Source: Escherichia phage 236Ecol005PP. From it: a stretch of 64,000 nt of DNA. The stretch is taken from the sequence record PP434423.1. The stretch is one strand, 5' to 3'. The translations under genes were made by a program, and so were the position numbers. Shown one piece after another: positions 12,509 to 62,233 of the stretch. How positions within the stretch are numbered: the stretch's first letter is position 1; every line of letters starts with the position of its first letter. Under the pieces are notes generated by a model. The model made no database searches and was not told the DNA's origin. It saw only the letters and a list, made by a program, of their open reading frames with translations.

Positions 12509-14219
12509 TAACCTTAATTGGTTTGTTGGTGTTGTTGAAGATAGAATGGACCCATTAAAATTAGGTCGTGTTCGTGTTCGTGTGGTTGGTCTGCATCCAC
12601 CTCAAAGAGCGCAAGGCGACGTAATGGGTATTCCAACAGATAAATTACCATGGATGTCAGTTATTCAACCTATAACTTCTGCAGCAATGTCTGGAATTGG
12701 AGGCTCCGTTACTGGTCCGGTAGAAGGAACTAGAGTTTATGGTCATTTTTTAGACAAATGGAAAACTAATGGAATTGTCCTTGGCACGTATGGTGGAATA
12801 GTTCGCGAAAAGCCTAATAGACTTGAAGGATTTTCTGACCCGACTGGACAGTATCCTAGACGTCTAGGAAATGATACTAACGTATTAAACCAAGGCGGAG
12901 AAGTAGGATATGATTCGTCTTCTAATATTATCCAAGATAGTAATTTAGATACTGCGATAAATCCTGATGATAGACCACTATCAGAGATTCCAACTGATGA
13001 TAATCCAAATATGTCAATGGCTGAAATGCTTCGCCGTGATGAAGGATTAAGACTAAAAGTCTATTGGGATACAGAAGGATATCCGACAATTGGTATTGGT
13101 CATCTTATCATGAAGCAGCCAGTTCGTGATATGAACCAAATTAATAAAGTTTTATCAAAACAAGTTGGTCGTGAAATTACCGGAAATCCAGGTTCTATTA
13201 CAATGGAAGAAGCGGTAAATTTATTTGAACGCGATTTGGCTGATATGCAACGTGACATTAAATCACATTCTAAAGTTGGCCCAGTTTGGCAAGCAGTTAA
13301 TCGTTCTCGTCAAATGGCATTAGAAAATATGGCATTTCAGATGGGTGTTGGCGGTGTAGCTAAATTTAACACAATGTTAACTGCTATGTTAGCCGGAGAT
13401 TGGGAAAAGGCATATAAAGCTGGTCGTGATTCATTGTGGTATCAACAAACAAAAGGCCGTGCATCTCGTGTTACCATGATTATTCTTACAGGGAATTTGG
13501 AATCATACGGCATTGAAGTGAAAACACCGGCTAGGTCTTTGTCAGCAATGGCTGCTACTGTAGCAAAGTCTTCTGATCCAGCTGACCCTCCTATTCCGAA
13601 TGATTCGAGAATTTTATTCAAAGAACCTGTTTCTTCATATAAAGGTGAATATCCGTATGTTCACACAATGGAAACTGAAAGCGGTCATATTCAGGAATTT
13701 GACGATACCCCGGGACAAGAACGATACAGATTAGTTCATCCGACTGGAACATATGAGGAAGTATCACCGTCAGGAAGAAGAACAAGAAAAACTGTTGACA
13801 ATTTGTATGATATAACAAATGCTGATGGTAATTTTTTGGTAGCTGGCGATAAAAAGACTAACGTCGGTGGATCAGAAATTTATTACAACATGGATAATCG
13901 TCTCCACCAAATAGATGGAAGCAATACAATATTTGTGCGTGGCGATGAAACTAAGACGGTTGAAGGTAATGGAACTATCCTAGTCAAAGGTAATGTTACT
14001 ATTGTAGTTGAAGGTAATGCTGACATTACAGTTAAAGGGGATGCTACCACTTTAGTTGAAGGAAATCAGACTAATACAGTAAATGGAAATCTTTCTTGGA
14101 AAGTTGCTGGGACAGTTGATTGGGACGTTGGTGGTGATTGGACAGAAAAAATGGCATCTATGAGTTCTATTTCATCTGGTCAATACACAATTGATGGATC
14201 GAGGATTGACATTGGCTAA
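12492..14219 (+). CDS. 5: gp5 baseplate hub / cell-puncturing protein with lysozyme domain
   Basis: OB-fold N-term, lysozyme motif GLRLKVYWDTEGYPTIGIGHL, C-terminal VEGNxT beta-helix repeats; 575 aa. Confidence 0.95.
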   Translation: MEMISNNLNWFVGVVEDRMDPLKLGRVRVRVVGLHPPQRAQGDVMGIPTDKLPWMSVIQPITSAAMSGIGGSVTGPVEGTRVYGHFLDKWKTNGIVLGTYGGIVREKPNRLEGFSDPTGQYPRRLGNDTNVLNQGGEVGYDSSSNIIQDSNLDTAINPDDRPLSEIPTDDNPNMSMAEMLRRDEGLRLKVYWDTEGYPTIGIGHLIMKQPVRDMNQINKVLSKQVGREITGNPGSITMEEAVNLFERDLADMQRDIKSHSKVGPVWQAVNRSRQMALENMAFQMGVGGVAKFNTMLTAMLAGDWEKAYKAGRDSLWYQQTKGRASRVTMIILTGNLESYGIEVKTPARSLSAMAATVAKSSDPADPPIPNDSRILFKEPVSSYKGEYPYVHTMETESGHIQEFDDTPGQERYRLVHPTGTYEEVSPSGRRTRKTVDNLYDITNADGNFLVAGDKKTNVGGSEIYYNMDNRLHQIDGSNTIFVRGDETKTVEGNGTILVKGNVTIVVEGNADITVKGDATTLVEGNQTNTVNGNLSWKVAGTVDWDVGGDWTEKMASMSSISSGQYTIDGSRIDIG

Positions 14220-36754: not shown

Positions 36755-36969
36755 TGGAAGGTTTAATTGAAGCTATTAAATCAAACGACCTCGTAGCCGC
36801 TCGTAAATTATTTGCTGAAGCCATGGCTACAAGAACGATTGATTTAATTAAAGAAGAAAAAATCGCTATCGCTCGTAATTTCTTAATCGAAGGTGAAGAA
36901 CCTGAAGACGACGAAGACGAGGATGATGACGAAGACGACGAAGACGACGAAGACGAGGATGATGAATAA
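36754..36969 (+). CDS. 67: prohead core protein with poly-acidic C-terminus
   Basis: 71 aa; C-terminal [24 protein letters not shown]; position between 20 and 68. Confidence 0.8.
36904..36966 (+). repeat. GA-rich tandem codon repeat (GAA/GAC/GAG/GAT) encoding the acidic tail of gp67
   Basis: gaagacgacgaagacgaggatgat unit repeated. Confidence 0.7.
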
Positions 36970-56700: not shown

Positions 56701-58752
56701 TTATCCTTGAACGAACTTGTAAGGCATGTTTGCAATATCTATGCAAGACGCAATAATTCCAAGAGATGATTCTGCTTTCTGTTTAACATTTGATGAAACA
56801 AACGATGCAAAGTCAACTCTATCTTCTATATCACCTGTCATTGTAACCAATTCACCAGTTTCCATTAAACGGTCACCGTCATAAATTACCGATTCGGTGA
56901 GTTCTTCTGTGGTCATAACTTCAGCTTGAATAAGCTTGTTGTTAGTTCTAACTGTTCCATCGTTGTAAGATGCATCAGTTATTTTATTAACTTTGACCAT
57001 TAATCCACGTGGCAAAATGACTTCCATTTCATTTGAAGGCGCTAAACTTCCACCGGGTAAAACAACATTGACTTTATCAGCCCCAGTAATAACCCATCCA
57101 ATTCCAACTAAATTATCGCTAGAATTTACAAGTCCTTCATCAGTTTTATCAATAGAAACACTTAAACGCTTTTCGTCTGGTAAAACACCCACAGATGAAT
57201 CAGTCATCCAAGTACCAAAAATATTTGGATATAATGATGTTGACACAAAGTTTCTAAAATAAAAAACTCGATTTTTTACCATTGCTTCGTATATTGAAGG
57301 TAACATTCGTTGTGAACGATACAAAGTAATACCTTTTGGTAATCGTTCACCATTTTTAAAGGCTGAATCTAAATTATCAATGGCTTGTTCTATTTCAGGT
57401 GCTGTTAAAATACTTGTACGCTCATCTGGATTATATAATCCCAAAAGAGCATTATTCATGTCTACATATCCTGAACCTACATATTCACGAATTCCGCGTT
57501 TTTGCGCTGGTGTGTATTTAGATGAATCTTTATTTTCGACTATAGGATGTAATGACCATCCAGCGGTAAGAGCATATCCACGTAATTCTCTTCGAATAAT
57601 CTTTGTTTTTATTGCATTCCAAGAATTTTGTACTAACTCATTTGCAGCATCTTGGTTTAAATGCGAATGTCTGTTAATATTTCTTTCAAACCAAGCACCT
57701 TTATATTTTTCTAAAGTATCATCGACGATAGAAGCAATAGTTTCTAAAGTTTTTATTGAAGTAATAGATTCTTTTCGTAATTTTTCTAAAGCTTTATTTT
57801 TTATTTCTGCATTAATAATGGATTCTTTATCTTCAGGAATTATAGAAGCTTCTCTGAATGCCATCCCAGCTGTAACACTGCTAAGAGCATTCTCTAATGC
57901 AAATCCTGAAGTAGAAATAACAGTTAATTCGTTAGCATCAGAAATTAAAGGCGCGTCGGCGGGTTTATTTAATTCTGCTGCTGAAGCCTCAAATTTTTGA
58001 AACATTGGTGTTTCAAATCTAGAAGATTCCAATGACTGACTTTGTGCAATTGCTCTACGGGAAATTTTAACTTTAACAATAACAGCTTGGTCAGAACGTT
58101 TATCATTTTCTTGCGCAATAGATGCAGCAATTGCCTCATTTTTAGTTACTTGAGCTCCAGTATCTTTATTGATATAAACATCACCGACCTTCGATTCAAC
58201 TTTAGTAAAGAGCTCGGTGCTAATTTCCGGAACTCCTGGAATGTCTTCTAGTGATACATTTTTGCGATGTATAAGAATATATGCATACTTTTTATCGTAA
58301 TCCCAGAGTTCCTTAAGAAGGACGTATCTGCCACCTGAACGACTGCGGATAAGTCTATCAGCAATAACTTGAATTTGTCGAGCTTGACCAGCAGTTTTAG
58401 ACTTAAGAATACGAAGCATGCAGGCATCAATTTTATACTGACGCATCGTTTGCATCGCAACAGTAAAAACTGAATTGATGTAATTAATTGGGCTTGGACC
58501 GAGACCTTTTAATTTAGCAATTGAACCTTTAGCAGTTAATGTAAAAGGAACGATGTGCATCATTTTATCGCCCATCTTTAAATCACGGTTAGTATCACCT
58601 CCAGATGTATAAGTACATAAACGAAAGCCTGGTTGTTCTATTGCGTCATCAACATGAACTGAAAAAATTTGTGGTATTTTCTTCTTTGGATACAAATTTG
58701 TAATCGGAAGAGTAGTATTTTCGTCAAATAATTCTGTAATAAGTTCCATCAT
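56701..58752 (-). CDS. alt: Alt ADP-ribosyltransferase (virion-packaged)
   Basis: 683 aa; position between 54 and 30 and length as T4 Alt; two adjacent ATG starts. Confidence 0.85.
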   Translation of the reverse strand: MMELITELFDENTTLPITNLYPKKKIPQIFSVHVDDAIEQPGFRLCTYTSGGDTNRDLKMGDKMMHIVPFTLTAKGSIAKLKGLGPSPINYINSVFTVAMQTMRQYKIDACMLRILKSKTAGQARQIQVIADRLIRSRSGGRYVLLKELWDYDKKYAYILIHRKNVSLEDIPGVPEISTELFTKVESKVGDVYINKDTGAQVTKNEAIAASIAQENDKRSDQAVIVKVKISRRAIAQSQSLESSRFETPMFQKFEASAAELNKPADAPLISDANELTVISTSGFALENALSSVTAGMAFREASIIPEDKESIINAEIKNKALEKLRKESITSIKTLETIASIVDDTLEKYKGAWFERNINRHSHLNQDAANELVQNSWNAIKTKIIRRELRGYALTAGWSLHPIVENKDSSKYTPAQKRGIREYVGSGYVDMNNALLGLYNPDERTSILTAPEIEQAIDNLDSAFKNGERLPKGITLYRSQRMLPSIYEAMVKNRVFYFRNFVSTSLYPNIFGTWMTDSSVGVLPDEKRLSVSIDKTDEGLVNSSDNLVGIGWVITGADKVNVVLPGGSLAPSNEMEVILPRGLMVKVNKITDASYNDGTVRTNNKLIQAEVMTTEELTESVIYDGDRLMETGELVTMTGDIEDRVDFASFVSSNVKQKAESSLGIIASCIDIANMPYKFVQG

Positions 58753-58803: not shown

Positions 58804-58990
58804 AATAATCTAATGGTAAGAGAGTACGATATATTTCAAACTTTGGCCCTTTTTCATAGGCATCAAATGTTTCTGAAAATTTATTATAAGCATATGCATC
58901 TACAAATTCGAGAATGATTTGTGATACAGAAGTAGAAACATCTCCACCTTCTTTTTGAGCAATGACAATTGTTTCTAAGTAAGCTTTCAT
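58802..58990 (-). CDS. hypothetical protein, 62 aa, translationally coupled to ligase
   Basis: ATG overlaps gene 30 stop (ATGA). Confidence 0.55.
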   Translation of the reverse strand: MKAYLETIVIAQKEGGDVSTSVSQIILEFVDAYAYNKFSETFDAYEKGPKFEIYRTLLPLDY

Positions 58991-60450
58991 AGACCAGTTA
59001 CCTCATGAAAATCGCCAAATACATCCTCGAATGTATTAGCTTTAGTTTTATCTTCACGTAAACGAATCGCAATCGGAAGAAATAATTTAACGTAATCAGT
59101 GCGGCCATCAGATTTTAACCAACCATTGCATTCGCACTCTAGAATTTTTCCAATATAATAATTTTGGTTTTCCATAATGCGAGTACGGTCAAGTTCATGC
59201 GATTTTACACCGGCTTTATCTTTTAAGCCTGAACCAGCATTTACTTTAATTTTTCCACACTCTGACTCAAGAATAAATCCACCTGCTTTAGTAGGGTCTT
59301 TACGGTGAGGATAAATTCCTACAATTTTTAAATCAACATCAATTACTTCTTTAAATTTATAGAGATTTTTTGAACGAGCATTTTCCCATAATCCATCGAT
59401 ATTTTTGAGAATAATACCTTCAAGACCTTGGTCAATATACTTTTTATAAATTACCTTAGCTTCATCTAGGTTATTTACTACCTGGTTTTCAATTAAAATT
59501 ACTTTATCATAGCCTGATGTCATTTGTTCTAGTTTAGAAAAACGTACATCATATTTCAAACGAAATGCAGGAAGACCGTATATTTCTACCAACGGGACAT
59601 AATCCCAGACCTGAAACTTCATGCATTGAGCTTCTTTTTCAGAAATGGTTCCCTTTAAAGATTTATTGGCGATGCCATTAGATGCAGTACGTGATTCAGC
59701 TACTTCTGTGAAGTCTTTAACTTTGCTGTTTTCAGGATGAGCATCAAAAAGAAAATCTAGGCCTTCTGGCTCCTTTTTAACTTGCTCATGGTATACCAAT
59801 TCGCCATCAATTAACACACCTTCTGGATGAATCTGGCGGGCTTCAGCAGTCATTTTGATTAACTCTTCCTTAAGAAGATCTAATCCTAGATATTCATTAC
59901 CGGCTCGTGATAAAAGACGAACATCATCTAATTCATCACCTCGGACTTCAGCAAAACACCGAGCTCCATCTGCTTTTAACTGTGCAAAGGCTGGAAACTT
60001 AATATTCTTATTAATGCCTTTTTCATCATAAGAACTTGCCAGCATTTGAGGTTGTTCAGGAATTAAACCTGACCAAACTTTGTTTGCAATAGATACTGAA
60101 GCACCGCATTCAAGGTCTCGCATCATAACTCGACGCAAAACTTCAACATCATTCTTTTTACCATCAGTGATATATCCAGTCAATTCCTCAATTGCAGCAT
60201 TTCCAGTCAATTTCCGAGTAGCTAATGTGAATTCAATGAAGTCAAGCATATCGGTAAGAGTCAACATTCCAAAACTCTGGGTAGTAATACCAGGTTTAGG
60301 CCATTTCTTGATATAATACTGCAACCCACGAGAATAAGTCAGACGATATACTCGTTTAAGCAATTCATTATCTTTATTCTTTTCAAGAATTGCTTGCTTC
60401 TGCTTAGTTGAACCAATAGATGCTATTTCGTTCAGAATTTTAAGAATCAT
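58987..60450 (-). CDS. 30: ATP-dependent DNA ligase
   Basis: MILKILNEIASIGSTKQKQAILEKNKDNELLKRVYRL... and KADG motif; 487 aa, T4 DNA ligase. Confidence 0.97.
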   Translation of the reverse strand: MILKILNEIASIGSTKQKQAILEKNKDNELLKRVYRLTYSRGLQYYIKKWPKPGITTQSFGMLTLTDMLDFIEFTLATRKLTGNAAIEELTGYITDGKKNDVEVLRRVMMRDLECGASVSIANKVWSGLIPEQPQMLASSYDEKGINKNIKFPAFAQLKADGARCFAEVRGDELDDVRLLSRAGNEYLGLDLLKEELIKMTAEARQIHPEGVLIDGELVYHEQVKKEPEGLDFLFDAHPENSKVKDFTEVAESRTASNGIANKSLKGTISEKEAQCMKFQVWDYVPLVEIYGLPAFRLKYDVRFSKLEQMTSGYDKVILIENQVVNNLDEAKVIYKKYIDQGLEGIILKNIDGLWENARSKNLYKFKEVIDVDLKIVGIYPHRKDPTKAGGFILESECGKIKVNAGSGLKDKAGVKSHELDRTRIMENQNYYIGKILECECNGWLKSDGRTDYVKLFLPIAIRLREDKTKANTFEDVFGDFHEVTGL

Positions 60451-60716
60451 TATTCATCCTTCAGAGTTTGGTTTACAGCTCTATTATAAATCAATTCATC
60501 ATTAAGCTCAGTCAAAGACTTATGATATGTGGTTCTAACTTTATTTCCTTGCATCCAGTGCTTGATATAAATGAAACCTTGCTCTACACATTTTTTAAAA
60601 ATTCGTTCGTCTTTTTGAGCTCGGAACTCTGGATTGCATCTAAAAAATTGATTTACGTGACCGTAATCACGTGTAGTATTACCTTCATTTTCATAAATAG
60701 TGTGAACAACAAACAT
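60450..60716 (-). CDS. hypothetical protein, 88 aa (first ORF upstream of ligase)
   Basis: ATG start; ATGA-type coupling. Confidence 0.6.
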   Translation of the reverse strand: MFVVHTIYENEGNTTRDYGHVNQFFRCNPEFRAQKDERIFKKCVEQGFIYIKHWMQGNKVRTTYHKSLTELNDELIYNRAVNQTLKDE

Positions 60717-61579
60717 TAGAATGCTCCTTGAAAAATATTATCACCACTAGTAAGTCTATTAAAATACCCTGCGTCGCCAGGCTTAATATAACTCCACGTG
60801 TGGAATGGATTCATATGATACGGGTGTGTATAATATGGATTATATGGATGTGTATAATATGGATGATATGGATTTAATCCAGGCGTTCTCCAGGTAGTGT
60901 TCCAAGGAAAAGAATCGTTTTTAACCATCTTCTCAATTACATCTTTTATAGCTTTTTCACTATCAAAACTTTCTTTATTTTCCTTTGGTGAAAAAAGCTT
61001 ATTCTCTACATCGTTCCATGTATAAACTCGCTGTGCAGTTTTTGGAATATTGTCACGCTCTCCTCGCGCCATCCAATAAACAGGAACATTTAATATTTCA
61101 TTCGCATGATCGCAATGGTGAGCAAGATCGTCAATATAACAAATTACGTTATATTTCTCTTTTGCCTTTTTGAATAACTCTTCTTTTGAAGAATCATGAC
61201 CACACATCATTACTTCTGAGAAGGCACCAGGAAAAAGAGCATTCAAATTAAATTGACGATTCAACAGAGCGTCAATAGAATCACCCAATGCTGTAACAGC
61301 TACAAAATTATAATCTTCTTTTAATTTGTTAATTACACACAGAGCATCTTTATACGGAGACAAGTAACGAATAAAATCTGAACGATTGTATTTTTCAATT
61401 AACTTGACGCCAAGTTCTTCATCACAATTAAATAGTTTACCTGGAGAAATAAATTTCTCATCTTGGATCATTTTTAAAATATGTTCTAACGGAAGATTAT
61501 ATTTCTGAGCAAAATAAGGAAGGCCTGATTGCCAGCTTAAACATACTCCATCAATATCAGTCAAAATAGTTGGCTTCAT
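60716..61579 (-). CDS. HAD-superfamily phosphatase (5-prime(3-prime)-deoxyribonucleotidase-like) with C-terminal Pro/Tyr/His repeat
   Basis: HAD motif I LTDIDGV near N-terminus; C-terminal NPYHPYYTHPYNPYYTHPYH. Confidence 0.7.
   Translation of the reverse strand: MKPTILTDIDGVCLSWQSGLPYFAQKYNLPLEHILKMIQDEKFISPGKLFNCDEELGVKLIEKYNRSDFIRYLSPYKDALCVINKLKEDYNFVAVTALGDSIDALLNRQFNLNALFPGAFSEVMMCGHDSSKEELFKKAKEKYNVICYIDDLAHHCDHANEILNVPVYWMARGERDNIPKTAQRVYTWNDVENKLFSPKENKESFDSEKAIKDVIEKMVKNDSFPWNTTWRTPGLNPYHPYYTHPYNPYYTHPYHMNPFHTWSYIKPGDAGYFNRLTSGDNIFQGAF
60825..60872 (-). repeat. 24-bp tandem direct repeat (x2) inside the HAD-like gene
   Basis: gtgtataatatggattatatggat / gtgtataatatggatgatatggat, one mismatch. 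Confidence 0.8.
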
Positions 61580-62034
61580 AGAGAGTCTCTTAATAGGTTT
61601 AACACATCAATAAATTCAGCTTCGGTTAGTATTGTATCATCTTTTGTTAGACCACTAGCCATGCTGTGCTTCAAAACTTTTCCTTTCGAGGCTTGTAATG
61701 CATCGCGAAAGCCCTTGTTTTGGAACGCTGCTTCAAAATATGCATTTGTGTATAATTCTTTCCACGCCGGAGAGTATCTTGAAAACGGAACTCCAAGCCA
61801 AAAGAGGGTCCCACGGTCCTGAGCTCTAGCATAAGACCTTCCAGCTTGTTGGGCGGCAAGCCCGGATAACCCAAATATACGACGCTGTTGTTCAACATTT
61901 TTCACCTTGCATCCTTGGAGGAATCCTTCGAGACCTCCAAATTGAATACCATCCATAACGAAAGGCCATTGGGCGAAATTACTTAATGCGCATGATGGCC
62001 ATCTAAAATTGCTTCTTATCTCTAACTCAGACAT
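61576..62034 (-). CDS. NADAR (YbiA/DUF1768)-like protein, 152 aa
   Basis: SNFAQWPF..DG..F...EGFLQGCK resembles the NADAR core by eye; ATG 62034 (track start 62040 is TTG). Confidence 0.55.
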   Translation of the reverse strand: MSELEIRSNFRWPSCALSNFAQWPFVMDGIQFGGLEGFLQGCKVKNVEQQRRIFGLSGLAAQQAGRSYARAQDRGTLFWLGVPFSRYSPAWKELYTNAYFEAAFQNKGFRDALQASKGKVLKHSMASGLTKDDTILTEAEFIDVLNLLRDSL

Positions 62035-62233
62035 TTTCAATACTTATAATTTCAACATCAGCCCAATGACCATAGCAAGGAAGACGAAATTCAACTGGCC
62101 AGTTAGGGTCCTTTTCTAATATAATAGACTGAACTTGTGGCTCTTCATGTTCATCGGTATACGGACCTTTATACGTTACTTTATATGTGACCTTAATGTA
62201 CTGAATTCCAAAAATCTTATTAATTATATTCAT
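62027..62233 (-). CDS. hypothetical protein, 68 aa
   Basis: ATG start; overlapping-stop coupling. Confidence 0.55.
   Translation of the reverse strand: MNIINKIFGIQYIKVTYKVTYKGPYTDEHEEPQVQSIILEKDPNWPVEFRLPCYGHWADVEIISIENV

What the first reader, a model, noticed from the sequence alone, without database searches (positions are those of the whole stretch)
60716..61579. HAD-type nucleotidase-like protein with a tandemly repeated His/Tyr/Pro C-terminal tail
The N-terminus carries the HAD motif I (LTDIDGV), consistent with a 5-prime(3-prime)-deoxyribonucleotidase-like phosphatase. The C-terminus is NPYHPYYTHPYNPYYTHPYH, encoded by a near-perfect 24-bp tandem duplication (60825-60872). Such repeats are prone to copy-number variation, and the His/Tyr-rich tail could bind metal or mediate interaction. 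A nucleotide phosphatase in the early region could reshape dNMP pools or remove signalling nucleotides.
Basis: partly seen in the sequence, partly recalled or inferred. Interest (0 to 1): 0.4.

Follow-up and report, generated by a model that had tools for sequence, protein, structure and literature searches.

The report
T4 gp30.2 phosphatase with slippery tail
This is the T4-type phage gene 30.2, a dispensable, uncharacterised HAD-family phosphatase most like 5'(3')-deoxyribonucleotidases, with a disordered tail that changes length between related phages by repeat slippage; it is a real but fairly ordinary feature.

Summary
The ORF (60716-61579, minus strand, 287 aa) is the orthologue of phage T4 gene 30.2 in a Tequatrovirus. 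It lies between adfN/30.3 and 30.1/DNA ligase.

Residues 1-195 form a confidently modelled HAD phosphatase with a helical C1 cap. All four catalytic motifs are intact: D8/D10, T96, K132, D150/D151. The closest sequence relatives with solved structures are cytosolic 5'(3')-deoxyribonucleotidases, but those matches are below family thresholds, so nucleotidase specificity is inferred.

The 24-bp tandem duplication is real and is the only such adjacent duplication in the 64-kb window. It is 21/24 identical, not near-perfect. It sits 32 residues before the C-terminus, not at it.

The duplication lies in a disordered Pro/Trp/Tyr-rich tail. That tail shows at least eight in-frame length classes among 499 related phage records; about 12% share the window's long allele.

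Across genera the tail has two conserved short motifs flanking a variable spacer, is missing from many homologues, and occurs on no other protein family. Histidines are not conserved, so metal binding is unsupported.

A published transposon screen scores T4 30.2 as non-essential.

Verdict: a real feature and a new member of a known kind, of low to moderate interest.

The parts
60716..61579 (-). CDS of the T4 gp30.2 orthologue (287 aa plus stop)
   Evidence: ORF list. The locus is 96-98% identical in DNA to many Tequatroviruses. T4 annotates the syntenic gene as 'gp30.2 conserved hypothetical protein'. PHROG 420 match at E=2e-89.
60995..61579 (-). HAD phosphatase domain, aa 1-195 (Rossmann-like core plus helical C1 cap)
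61544..61570 (-). HAD motif I, aa 4-12 TILTDIDGV (D8 nucleophile, D10 acid/base)
   Evidence: D8 and D10 are invariant in alignments A1 and A2. They align with the NMDGV (D12N mutant) motif of mouse cdN 2jao.
61310..61543 (-). C1 cap, aa 13-90, six short helices, with W16 eight residues after the nucleophile
   Evidence: Helices H16-26, 32-40, 46-49, 54-65, 68-71 and 77-86 lie between strand 1 and strand 2. W16 is at least 90% conserved even among distant relatives and aligns with F20 of mouse cdN. The cap is the region that matches cdN in sequence.
61289..61309 (-). HAD motif II strand, aa 91-97 NFVAVTA (T96)
   Evidence: T96 is at least 90% conserved. Strand E91-96 in the model.
61184..61186 (-). 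HAD motif III lysine, K132
   Evidence: Invariant in A1 and A2.
61127..61147 (-). HAD motif IV, aa 145-151 VICYIDD (D150, D151)
   Evidence: D150 and D151 are at least 90% conserved, and invariant in alignment A4. Strand E145-150 in the model.
60920..60961 (-). Linker helix, aa 207-220
   Evidence: Predicted helix H207-220 at intermediate confidence: the 10-residue block 211-220 averages pLDDT 85, block 201-210 averages 61.
60719..60910 (-). Disordered Pro/Trp/Tyr-rich tail, aa 224-287
   Evidence: pLDDT is about 35-60 in this region, in both the window protein and a Klebsiella-phage homologue. Tails are enriched in P (10.9% against 4.3%) and W (3.4% against 1.3%). A tail longer than 40 aa is present in 57 of 95 homologues.
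60878..60910 (-). First conserved tail motif, aa 224-234 FPWNTTWRTPG
   Evidence: The W is invariant and the FP..W..PG pattern is shared with Klebsiella- and Citrobacter-type phage homologues.
60815..60873 (-). Tandem repeat array (period 24 nt, 2.5 copies); full units at 60842-60865 and 60818-60841; encodes aa 236-255
   Evidence: TRF, shuffle test, codon map. The array lies in the variable-length spacer between the two conserved tail motifs.
60749..60778 (-). Second tail motif, degenerate in this allele: aa 268-277 GDAGYFNRLT (T4: GGIEYLYNRPT; other genera: GTGIEYLNRQPT)
   Evidence: Tail alignments. The motif ends 6-10 residues before the C-terminus in 20 of the 57 homologues whose tail exceeds 40 aa.
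61576..62040 (-). Upstream neighbour gp30.3 / AdfN (anti-DarT NADAR); its stop overlaps the 30.2 start (ATGA)
   Evidence: Pfam PF08010 at E=9e-70. UniRef name 'Anti-DarT factor NADAR'. Function shown in PMC11257639.
60450..60716 (-). Downstream neighbour gp30.1 (DUF3045); its start overlaps the 30.2 stop (TAATG), and its Shine-Dalgarno sequence GGAG lies in the last 30.2 codons
   Evidence: Pfam PF11243 at E=4e-64. Sequence. Coordinates.
58987..60450 (-). DNA ligase gp30, next gene downstream
   Evidence: ORF list and annotation of relatives.

Best explanation
The gene encodes the gp30.2 orthologue of a T4-like phage. Its first 195 residues are a Mg2+-dependent HAD phosphomonoesterase with a helical C1 cap. 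D8 forms the aspartyl-phosphate intermediate, D10 acts as acid/base, T96 and K132 hold the phosphate, and D150/D151 hold the metal. A capped HAD enzyme takes a small-molecule substrate. The cap resembles that of 5'(3')-deoxyribonucleotidases, including an aromatic residue (W16) eight positions after the nucleophile, so the substrate is most likely a nucleoside monophosphate.

The last ~64 residues are an intrinsically disordered Pro/Trp/Tyr-rich tail that is not needed for catalysis. It consists of two conserved short motifs separated by a spacer made of degenerate (N/H)PY(Y) codon repeats. Replication slippage expands and contracts that spacer in frame. The window carries the longest allele seen, through a 24-bp duplication. 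The conserved motifs probably dock the enzyme onto a partner protein.

Shown here: the fold, the catalytic residues, the repeat and its polymorphism, the disorder prediction, and (from a published screen) dispensability. Inferred: the substrate class, the slippage mechanism and the docking role.
For: Fold and catalytic residues:
- Catalytic residues are conserved in 95 and in 57 homologues.
- The AF2 model is confident for residues 1-190.

Subfamily:
- The only PDB sequence hits are cdN, and they cover motif I plus the cap.
- Pfam NT5C is the most frequent hit among distant relatives: 18 of 57, best 1.5e-9.
- The family is large, with 1280 cluster representatives at E<=0.001, most about 200 aa and without a tail.

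Repeat and tail:
- The repeat is real and unique in the window.
- There are eight in-frame length classes (218-245 nt over the same stretch) in an evenly spaced sample of 499 records, with indels of 3-24 nt falling in the repeat stretch.
- Tail pLDDT is below 60 in two independent models.
- The conserved bipartite tail motifs hold across genera.
- A tail profile retrieves only gp30.2 fragments.

Dispensability:
- T4 30.2 took insertions at 72 of 72 TA sites and is scored 'Non-essential' in HIDEN-SEQ supplementary file 7 (bioRxiv 10.1101/2025.11.20.689424).
- A natural contig carries a 30.7::30.2 deletion fusion.
Against: - The window protein matches no Pfam or NCBIfam model at E<=1.
- The cdN sequence matches are marginal (E 0.05-0.07) and cover only the N-terminal half.
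- The K132-to-D150 spacing includes a helix, as in generic HAD-IA enzymes; in the partial human cdN sequence shown the corresponding stretch looks shorter.
- No partner for the tail was identified.
- The window allele has a degenerate second motif (DAGYFNRLT instead of IEYLxxQPT), which weakens a strict docking requirement.
- No enzymatic data exist in the searched literature.
Confidence: 0.6

Rival explanations
1. gp30.2 is a HAD phosphatase for a non-nucleotide or ADP-ribose-derived small molecule, such as ribose-5-phosphate or a phosphorylated ADP-ribose derivative. In this reading it acts downstream of the neighbouring anti-DarT glycohydrolase AdfN (gp30.3) or against NAD-derived immune signals.
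For: - The gene is translationally coupled to adfN: the start and stop overlap at 61576-61579.
- adfN is an experimentally shown anti-DarTG1 DNA ADP-ribosylglycohydrolase (PMC11257639).
- The alt ADP-ribosyltransferase gene lies nearby.
- Fold searches rank generic sugar and small-molecule HAD-IA phosphatases as high as nucleotidases.
- 30.3 sits directly upstream of the HAD gene in an Acinetobacter phage and in two other contigs as well.
Against: - The 30.3-30.2 adjacency is absent in Erwinia phage Cronus, a Shewanella phage, a Klebsiella phage and a Salmonella phage.
- ADP-ribose itself has no phosphomonoester.
- AdfN alone is necessary and sufficient against DarTG1 according to PMC11257639.
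- The sequence matches to solved proteins are nucleotidases.
Confidence: 0.22
2. gp30.2 is a nucleic-acid end-healing 3'-phosphatase, like the HAD domain of polynucleotide kinase/phosphatase, that prepares nicks for the adjacent DNA ligase.
For: - The HAD gene lies next to or near DNA ligase in every phage context examined, including a rearranged contig.
- There is a weak PHROG hit to polynucleotide kinase (phrog_415, E=7e-4, aa 74-177).
- Phage PNK proteins appear among the viral fold matches.
Against: - The protein has a 78-residue helical C1 cap over the active site. By established HAD classification (Burroughs et al. 2006, from memory) such a cap goes with small substrates, whereas PNKP-type domains are capless.
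- PNK matches have lower TM-scores (0.33-0.39) than capped HADs.
- T4-like genomes keep global synteny, so adjacency to ligase is weak evidence.
- These phages already encode a separate PNK, as seen.
Confidence: 0.07
3. The His/Tyr-rich repeat is a metal-binding site that is functionally important.
For: The window allele has six His and nine Tyr in the 25 residues aa 236-260.
Against: - His is depleted in homologue tails relative to the core (1.5% against 2.5%).
- Fewer His are present across the same stretch in T4, T6 and RB32, and none are aligned in other genera.
- Many homologues, including ones 76% identical in the core, lack the tail altogether.
Confidence: 0.05
4. The tandem duplication is a sequencing or assembly artefact.
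For: None found.
Against: The identical allele is present in several independently sequenced phage genomes, with diverged copies (94-99% identical) in others. The two units have accumulated three substitutions.
Confidence: 0.01

Closest known systems
Cytosolic and mitochondrial 5'(3')-deoxyribonucleotidases (cdN/mdN; Pfam NT5C PF06941; PDB 2jao, 2i7d, 4l57) and the bacterial deoxyribonucleotidase-like protein 3bwv
   Same: - HAD fold with a helical C1 cap.
- Motif I of the form hhhDxDGV.
- An aromatic residue eight positions after the nucleophile: W16 aligns with F20 of mouse cdN.
- A DD motif IV.
- These are the only solved proteins found by sequence.
   Different: - Below Pfam thresholds for the window protein.
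- Similarity is limited to motif I plus the cap.
- A helix lies between motif III and motif IV.
- An extra ~90-residue linker and disordered tail.
- No biochemical data.
Generic HAD subfamily IA phosphatases (e.g. PH1655 2hoq, YfnB 3i76, phosphoglycolate phosphatases)
   Different: Only 12-19% identity. Motif I has GV rather than the usual GT. The cap sequence is closer to NT5C.
Phosphatase domain of T4 polynucleotide kinase (PseT; HAD_PNKP)
   Same: A phage-encoded HAD phosphatase with a DxD motif. Weak PHROG 415 hit.
   Different: PNKP-type domains lack the C1 cap and act on polynucleotide ends (from established knowledge). Lower structural similarity. A separate pseT-like gene exists in these phages.
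Phage T5 Dmp 5'-deoxyribonucleotidase
   Same: A phage-encoded early dNMP phosphatase, so a possible functional analogue (from memory, not tested here).
   Different: As I recall, Dmp belongs to the HD-domain family, an unrelated fold, so there is no homology.

Membership tests
HAD (haloacid dehalogenase-like) superfamily, phosphatase branch | Motif I DxD at the end of strand 1 (nucleophile and acid/base Asp) | tested here: met
   D8 and D10 are invariant in 95 and in 57 homologues. Strand E4-7 precedes them.
HAD (haloacid dehalogenase-like) superfamily, phosphatase branch | Motif II Thr/Ser, motif III Lys, motif IV acidic pair (DD) | tested here: met
   T96 is at least 90% conserved, K132 is invariant, and D150/D151 are at least 90% conserved. 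Each lies at the end of a predicted strand or before a helix as expected.
HAD (haloacid dehalogenase-like) superfamily, phosphatase branch | Rossmann-like HAD fold | tested here: met
HAD (haloacid dehalogenase-like) superfamily, phosphatase branch | Mg2+-dependent phosphoryl-transfer activity | not testable with these tools
   Needs an enzyme assay.
HAD subfamily I (C1 cap) | Helical cap inserted directly after motif I, before strand 2 | tested here: met
   Six helices between residues 16 and 86 precede strand E91-96. The best structural matches are C1-capped HAD-IA enzymes.
NT5C 5'(3')-deoxyribonucleotidase family (Pfam PF06941) | Score above the Pfam gathering threshold | tested here: not met
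   No Pfam hit at E<=1 for the window protein. There are weak hits in 23 of 95 orthologues (best 1.2e-4) and in 18 of 57 distant relatives (best 1.5e-9).
NT5C 5'(3')-deoxyribonucleotidase family (Pfam PF06941) | Motif I DxDGVL followed by an aromatic residue at nucleophile+8 that stacks on the base (role recalled from the mdN/cdN structures) | tested here: met
   The profile alignment to 2jao places tDvDGvlvkWqSgL against NMDGVLADFESGL. W16 is at least 90% conserved. The stacking role itself is inferred.
NT5C 5'(3')-deoxyribonucleotidase family (Pfam PF06941) | Significant full-length sequence similarity to characterised members | tested here: inconclusive
   The family profile's top PDB hit, and all four hits of homologue P0079, are cdN, but at E 0.047-0.75, and they cover only residues ~5-104.
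NT5C 5'(3')-deoxyribonucleotidase family (Pfam PF06941) | dNMP phosphatase activity | not testable with these tools
   Needs an enzyme assay.
PNKP-type HAD 3'-phosphatase | Capless (C0) HAD domain, usually fused to a P-loop kinase | tested here: not met
   A C1 cap is present and there is no kinase domain. The match to phrog_415 is only weak.
T4 gp30.2 orthologous group (PHROG 420) | Full-length profile match and conserved position upstream of 30.1 and DNA ligase | tested here: met
   phrog_420 at E=2e-89 over aa 1-276. 97.9% identity to T4 gp30.2 over aa 1-233. Same gene order as T4.

The most novel reading that the evidence does not exclude
The tail may be a modular docking device: two conserved short motifs (FPxxWxxPG and GxGTGIEYLxxQPT) joined by a slippage-prone spacer. 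In this reading it tethers the phosphatase to a specific partner. The partner could be the small protein gp30.1 (DUF3045) encoded immediately downstream, or a replication or host factor. Spacer length and motif variants would then be diversifying under phage-host conflict, making gp30.2 plus gp30.1 an accessory, possibly counter-defence, module next to adfN.

Hints for a gp30.1 link:
- A 30.1-like ORF follows the HAD gene in 5 of 5 tail-bearing contexts examined, against 1 of 5 tail-less ones.
- One lineage has an in-frame HAD::30.1 fusion (P0014, E=5e-17).
- Tegunavirus homologues may carry a weak 30.1-like C-terminal domain (13.8 bits).

The sample is small and phylogenetically non-independent.
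Probability: 0.15. Interest if true: 0.55.

Novelty: new member of a known kind. Interest (0 to 1): 0.27.

Why it matters
gp30.2 is one of the many conserved but unassigned early genes of T4-type phages, and it belongs to a family of more than a thousand sequence clusters that current Pfam and NCBIfam models miss.

Assigning it as a capped, NT5C-like HAD phosphatase gives a concrete biochemical hypothesis for a gene that sits beside a proven anti-defence gene (adfN) and DNA ligase.

The tail is a clean natural example of in-frame repeat slippage in a disordered region of a phage protein, bounded by conserved motifs. It could serve to find the enzyme's partner.

The phosphatase fold is already suggested by some automatic annotations, the gene is dispensable in the laboratory, and nothing here departs from known enzyme classes, so the significance is modest.

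Tried and rejected
- Direct Pfam, NCBIfam and single-sequence PDB searches of the window protein found no informative hit.
- A profile from the diverse alignment A2 against PDB gave a noisy profile, caused by long N-terminal extensions. It produced only weak HAD hits, some of them nucleotide phosphatases.
- A DNA- or RNA-level role for the repeat was checked. Promoter-like sites are not enriched (12 found against 8.2 +/- 2.9 expected), there are no terminators, and the RNA fold z-score is -0.98. Rejected.
- A search for other proteins carrying the tail, using a tail profile, returned only gp30.2 fragments and one deletion fusion. The tail is family-specific.
- A second AF2 run, on a Klebsiella-phage homologue with the best-conserved motif, tested whether the tail docks back onto the core. 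The tail stayed below pLDDT 50, so there is no evidence for intramolecular docking.
- Domain fusions in long distant relatives were uninformative in Pfam.
- Searches for literature on gp30.2 found nothing specific. Hits for '30.2' were journal-issue numbers.
- gp30.3 against PDB by sequence gave nothing. Its function came from the literature instead.
- The afdb50 fold library was unavailable.
- I considered a clamp-binding reading of the IEYL motif, because I recall LDFL-type C-terminal motifs in T4 gp43, gp55 and gp33. I could not test it, and the window allele lacks the motif, so I do not put it forward.
Full report
**Identity of the locus**

The window is a Tequatrovirus (T4-like) genome segment. 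The stretch 60400-62100 matches 659 phage records, 496 of them over at least 80% of its length, at up to 98.2% identity.

The ORF at 60716-61579 (minus strand, 287 aa) occupies the position of T4 gene 30.2. In T4 the gene is 278 aa and annotated 'gp30.2 conserved hypothetical protein'. The two proteins are 97.9% identical over aa 1-233. The exact window protein is deposited as WWT49769.1 of Escherichia phage 236Ecol005PP.

The neighbours on the same strand are:
- gp30.3 (61576-62040; Pfam PF08010, E=9e-70);
- gp30.1 (60450-60716; DUF3045, E=4e-64);
- DNA ligase gp30 (58987-60450);
- alt (56701-58752).

Adjacent genes overlap: ATGA between 30.3 and 30.2, and TAATG between 30.2 and 30.1. The GGAG ribosome-binding site of 30.1 lies inside the last codons of 30.2. 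This arrangement suggests a translationally coupled chain.

**Check of the observation**

The motif LTDIDGV is present at aa 6-12.

The tandem repeat is real:
- TRF reports 60815-60873, period 24, 2.5 copies, 88% matches, score 97. This is the top score in the window.
- In my own scan it is the only adjacent duplication of period 18-60 with at least 87.5% identity in 64 kb. None appeared in 30 Markov shuffles.
- The two full units (60842-60865, HPYYTHPY; 60818-60841, NPYYTHPY) differ at 3 of 24 bases.

The peptide is aa 236-255 and is followed by 32 more residues, so it is not the C-terminus.

The allele is not an artefact. Identical or 94-99% identical copies of the 245-nt tail stretch occur in independently sequenced phages.

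**The enzyme domain**

An alignment of 95 homologues shows D8, D10 and K132 invariant, and T96, D150 and D151 at least 90% conserved. D8, D10 and K132 remain invariant in 57 more distant relatives. These are HAD motifs I to IV.

AlphaFold2 gives pLDDT above 93 for residues 1-190. The model has the strand order of a Rossmann-like core and six helices (residues 16-86) inserted after strand 1, which is a C1 cap.

Fold searches agree:
- Foldseek against the PDB returns only HAD enzymes among the leading hits (103 at E<=0.001). They include cytosolic deoxyribonucleotidase (2jao, 2i7d, 4yih) and the deoxyribonucleotidase-like protein 3bwv.
- BFVD shows orthologues first, then phage proteins that are mostly auto-annotated as 5'-nucleotidases.

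The presence of both Asp residues in motif I points to phosphoryl transfer rather than dehalogenation. This follows from established knowledge of the superfamily.

**Subfamily**

The window protein hits no Pfam or NCBIfam model.

Several results point towards the deoxyribonucleotidases:
- The family profile's best PDB sequence match is mouse cytosolic 5'(3')-deoxyribonucleotidase, at E=0.069.
- All four PDB hits of the Acinetobacter-phage homologue P0079 are the same enzyme, at E 0.047-0.75.
- These alignments cover motif I and the cap. They put W16 opposite F20 of mouse cdN, eight residues after the nucleophile. As I recall, that residue stacks on the base in the cdN/mdN structures.

An exhaustive profile search shows a large family: 1280 cluster representatives at E<=0.001, most about 200 aa. 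Scanned one by one, 18 of 57 of these hit Pfam NT5C (best 1.5e-9) and 10 hit the generic Hydrolase model. Of the 95 closer homologues, 23 hit NT5C and 23 hit Hydrolase weakly.

I therefore place the protein in the HAD superfamily with confidence. I call it NT5C-like, but not a demonstrated NT5C member.

**The tail**

Beyond residue ~195, alignment occupancy and conservation collapse. Model confidence also drops: one helix at 207-220, then pLDDT of about 35-60 from ~224.

A second model, of a Klebsiella-phage homologue with the best-conserved tail, also leaves the tail below pLDDT 50. There is thus no sign that it folds back on the core.

Composition and distribution:
- Tails longer than 40 aa occur in 57 of 95 homologues.
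- They are enriched in Pro (10.9% against 4.3%) and Trp (3.4% against 1.3%), but not in His (1.5% against 2.5%).
- Close relatives with 76% core identity end right after the domain.

Across genera the tail has a recognisable plan:
- an FPxxW-x-x-PG motif;
- a spacer of variable length;
- a strongly conserved G-x-G-T-G-I-E-Y-L-x-x-Q-P-T motif that ends 6-10 residues before the C-terminus.

The window's repeat lies in the spacer. Its second motif is the degenerate 'DAGYFNRLT' variant, shared with T2, G8 and others. T4, T6 and RB32 keep 'GGIEYLYNRPT'.

A profile of the tail retrieves only gp30.2 fragments from 5.8 billion proteins, so the tail is specific to this family.

**Copy-number variation**

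An evenly spaced sample of 60 of the 499 records that match the tail stretch shows these spans:

| Span (nt) | Records | Protein length (aa) | Example |
|---|---|---|---|
| 245 | 7 | 287 | window |
| 242 | 1 | 286 | T-01 |
| 236 | 6 | 284 | phage 107 |
| 230 | 1 | 282 | G8 |
| 227 | 2 | 281 | T6, NBG2 |
| 224 | 4 | 280 | T2 |
| 221 | 20 | 279 | RB32 |
| 218 | 17 | 278 | T4 |

The other two rows of the sample covered only part of the query. All differences are multiples of three. The protein lengths come from eleven translated examples, which also include a 274-aa protein in phage a48.

The DNA alignment shows the indels are gains or losses of 3-24 nt within AATCCATAT / CATCCATAT / TATACACA-type units. 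There is also a separate AGTGGT duplication further downstream.

The window carries the longest allele. About 58 of 499 records (12%) match the window's tail stretch at 90% identity or more, and all seven such records in the sample have the 245-nt span. Another deposited fragment has the two units identical at the protein level (P0245).

This pattern fits replication slippage in a region where length is tolerated but the reading frame is kept. No promoter or RNA-structure signal explains the repeat.

**Context and function**

The upstream gene 30.3 is AdfN. It is a NADAR DNA ADP-ribosylglycohydrolase that is necessary and sufficient to protect T-even phages from DarTG1 (PMC11257639; UniRef name).

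T4 30.2 itself has no published function in the library searched. A transposon-insertion screen scores it non-essential, with 72 of 72 TA sites hit (bioRxiv 10.1101/2025.11.20.689424, supplementary file 7). A metagenomic contig carries an in-frame deletion that fuses 30.7 to the last 19 codons of 30.2.

Gene neighbourhoods:
- The HAD gene lies beside or near DNA ligase in every phage context examined. T4-like genomes are broadly syntenic, so this is weak functional evidence.
- Adjacency to 30.3 is not conserved.

**A lead on gp30.1**

A small 30.1-like ORF sits between the HAD gene and ligase in all five tail-bearing contexts examined: the window/T4, Erwinia phage Cronus, a Klebsiella phage, and loci L018 and L019. 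Among five tail-less contexts it is present in only one. The Klebsiella, Cronus and L018 ORFs resemble 30.1 only weakly, through the shared G-x-I-Y-I and YH-x-x-L-x-E-L patterns.

One lineage has an in-frame HAD::30.1 fusion (P0014; BLASTP E=5e-17 to the window's gp30.1).

Tegunavirus homologues may carry a weak 30.1-like C-terminal domain (13.8 bits).

The sample is small and phylogenetically non-independent, so I record this as a hypothesis only.

**Verdict**

The HAD assignment is sound, the nucleotidase assignment is plausible, and the metal-binding idea is unsupported.

The feature is an uncharacterised member of a known enzyme superfamily, with a family-specific disordered tail that varies by repeat slippage. 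This is modestly interesting, mainly as a handle for assigning a function to a conserved accessory T4 gene next to a counter-defence gene.

Noticed in passing
window 61576-62040 (-): The upstream gene is an intact gp30.3/AdfN orthologue: 154 aa from a TTG start, with Pfam PF08010 matched end to end. AdfN is the published anti-DarTG1 NADAR ADP-ribosylglycohydrolase, so this phage is predicted to resist DarTG1.
   Followed up: partly
L016 270-482 (Logan ERR13962969 contig; protein P0247): A 70-aa ORF fuses the N-terminal half of gp30.7 in frame to the last 19 residues of gp30.2 (…RFENGIEYLYNRPTGGDNIFQGAF), followed by 30.1 and ligase. This is a natural deletion of 30.6 to 30.2, apparently at a short GI/GGAATT microhomology. 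It implies the whole block is dispensable.
   Followed up: partly
P0014 (302 aa, Logan contig of 1378 nt); L023 2501-3439 (Yersinia phage phiR1-RT g203): P0014 is an in-frame fusion of a tail-less HAD domain to a gp30.1 (DUF3045) domain (E=5e-17). Its motif I reads DIDDV instead of DIDGV. The 312-aa Tegunavirus homologue has a ~110-aa folded-looking C-terminal extension with weak similarity to a 30.1 profile, and the next ORF, g202 (58 aa), also matches weakly.
   Followed up: partly
window 60749-60778 (-) and the same stretch in L001-L010: Tequatroviruses carry two sharply different alleles of the C-terminal motif. One is GGIEYLYNRPT (T4, T6, RB32, NBG2, a48). The other is GDAGYF-NRLT (window, T2, G8, phage 107, T-01). 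They differ by about six substitutions in 9-12 nt plus a 3-nt indel, although flanking DNA is nearly identical. This looks like mosaic exchange or rapid local divergence.
   Followed up: no
L003, L004, L007 (T-01, phage 107, T2), aligned to window ~60740-60750: There is a second, independent slippage site in the tail: a 6-nt AGTGGT duplication giving TSGSGD instead of TSGD. T-01 also has a 6-nt insertion in the repeat stretch, upstream of the conserved PFHTW.
   Followed up: no
window 36904-36965 and 13959-14066: Two other tandem repeats occur in the window. One is a GAAGACGAC / 18-nt array (score 85-91, presumably an acidic Glu/Asp run in a structural gene). The other is a 24-nt x 4.5 array with 67% matches.
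   Followed up: no
cluster of P0001: The 90%-identity protein cluster that holds gp30.2 also contains 152-aa gp30.3/AdfN sequences. This is presumably because some gene calls join the overlapping genes. Names drawn from this cluster can therefore be misleading.
   Followed up: no
L020 2229-2504 (Escherichia phage UGJNEcP4): In this tail-less relative the 30.3 (AdfN) gene call is only 91 aa. That could be a truncated adfN like the frameshifted RB69 allele described in PMC11257639.
   Followed up: no
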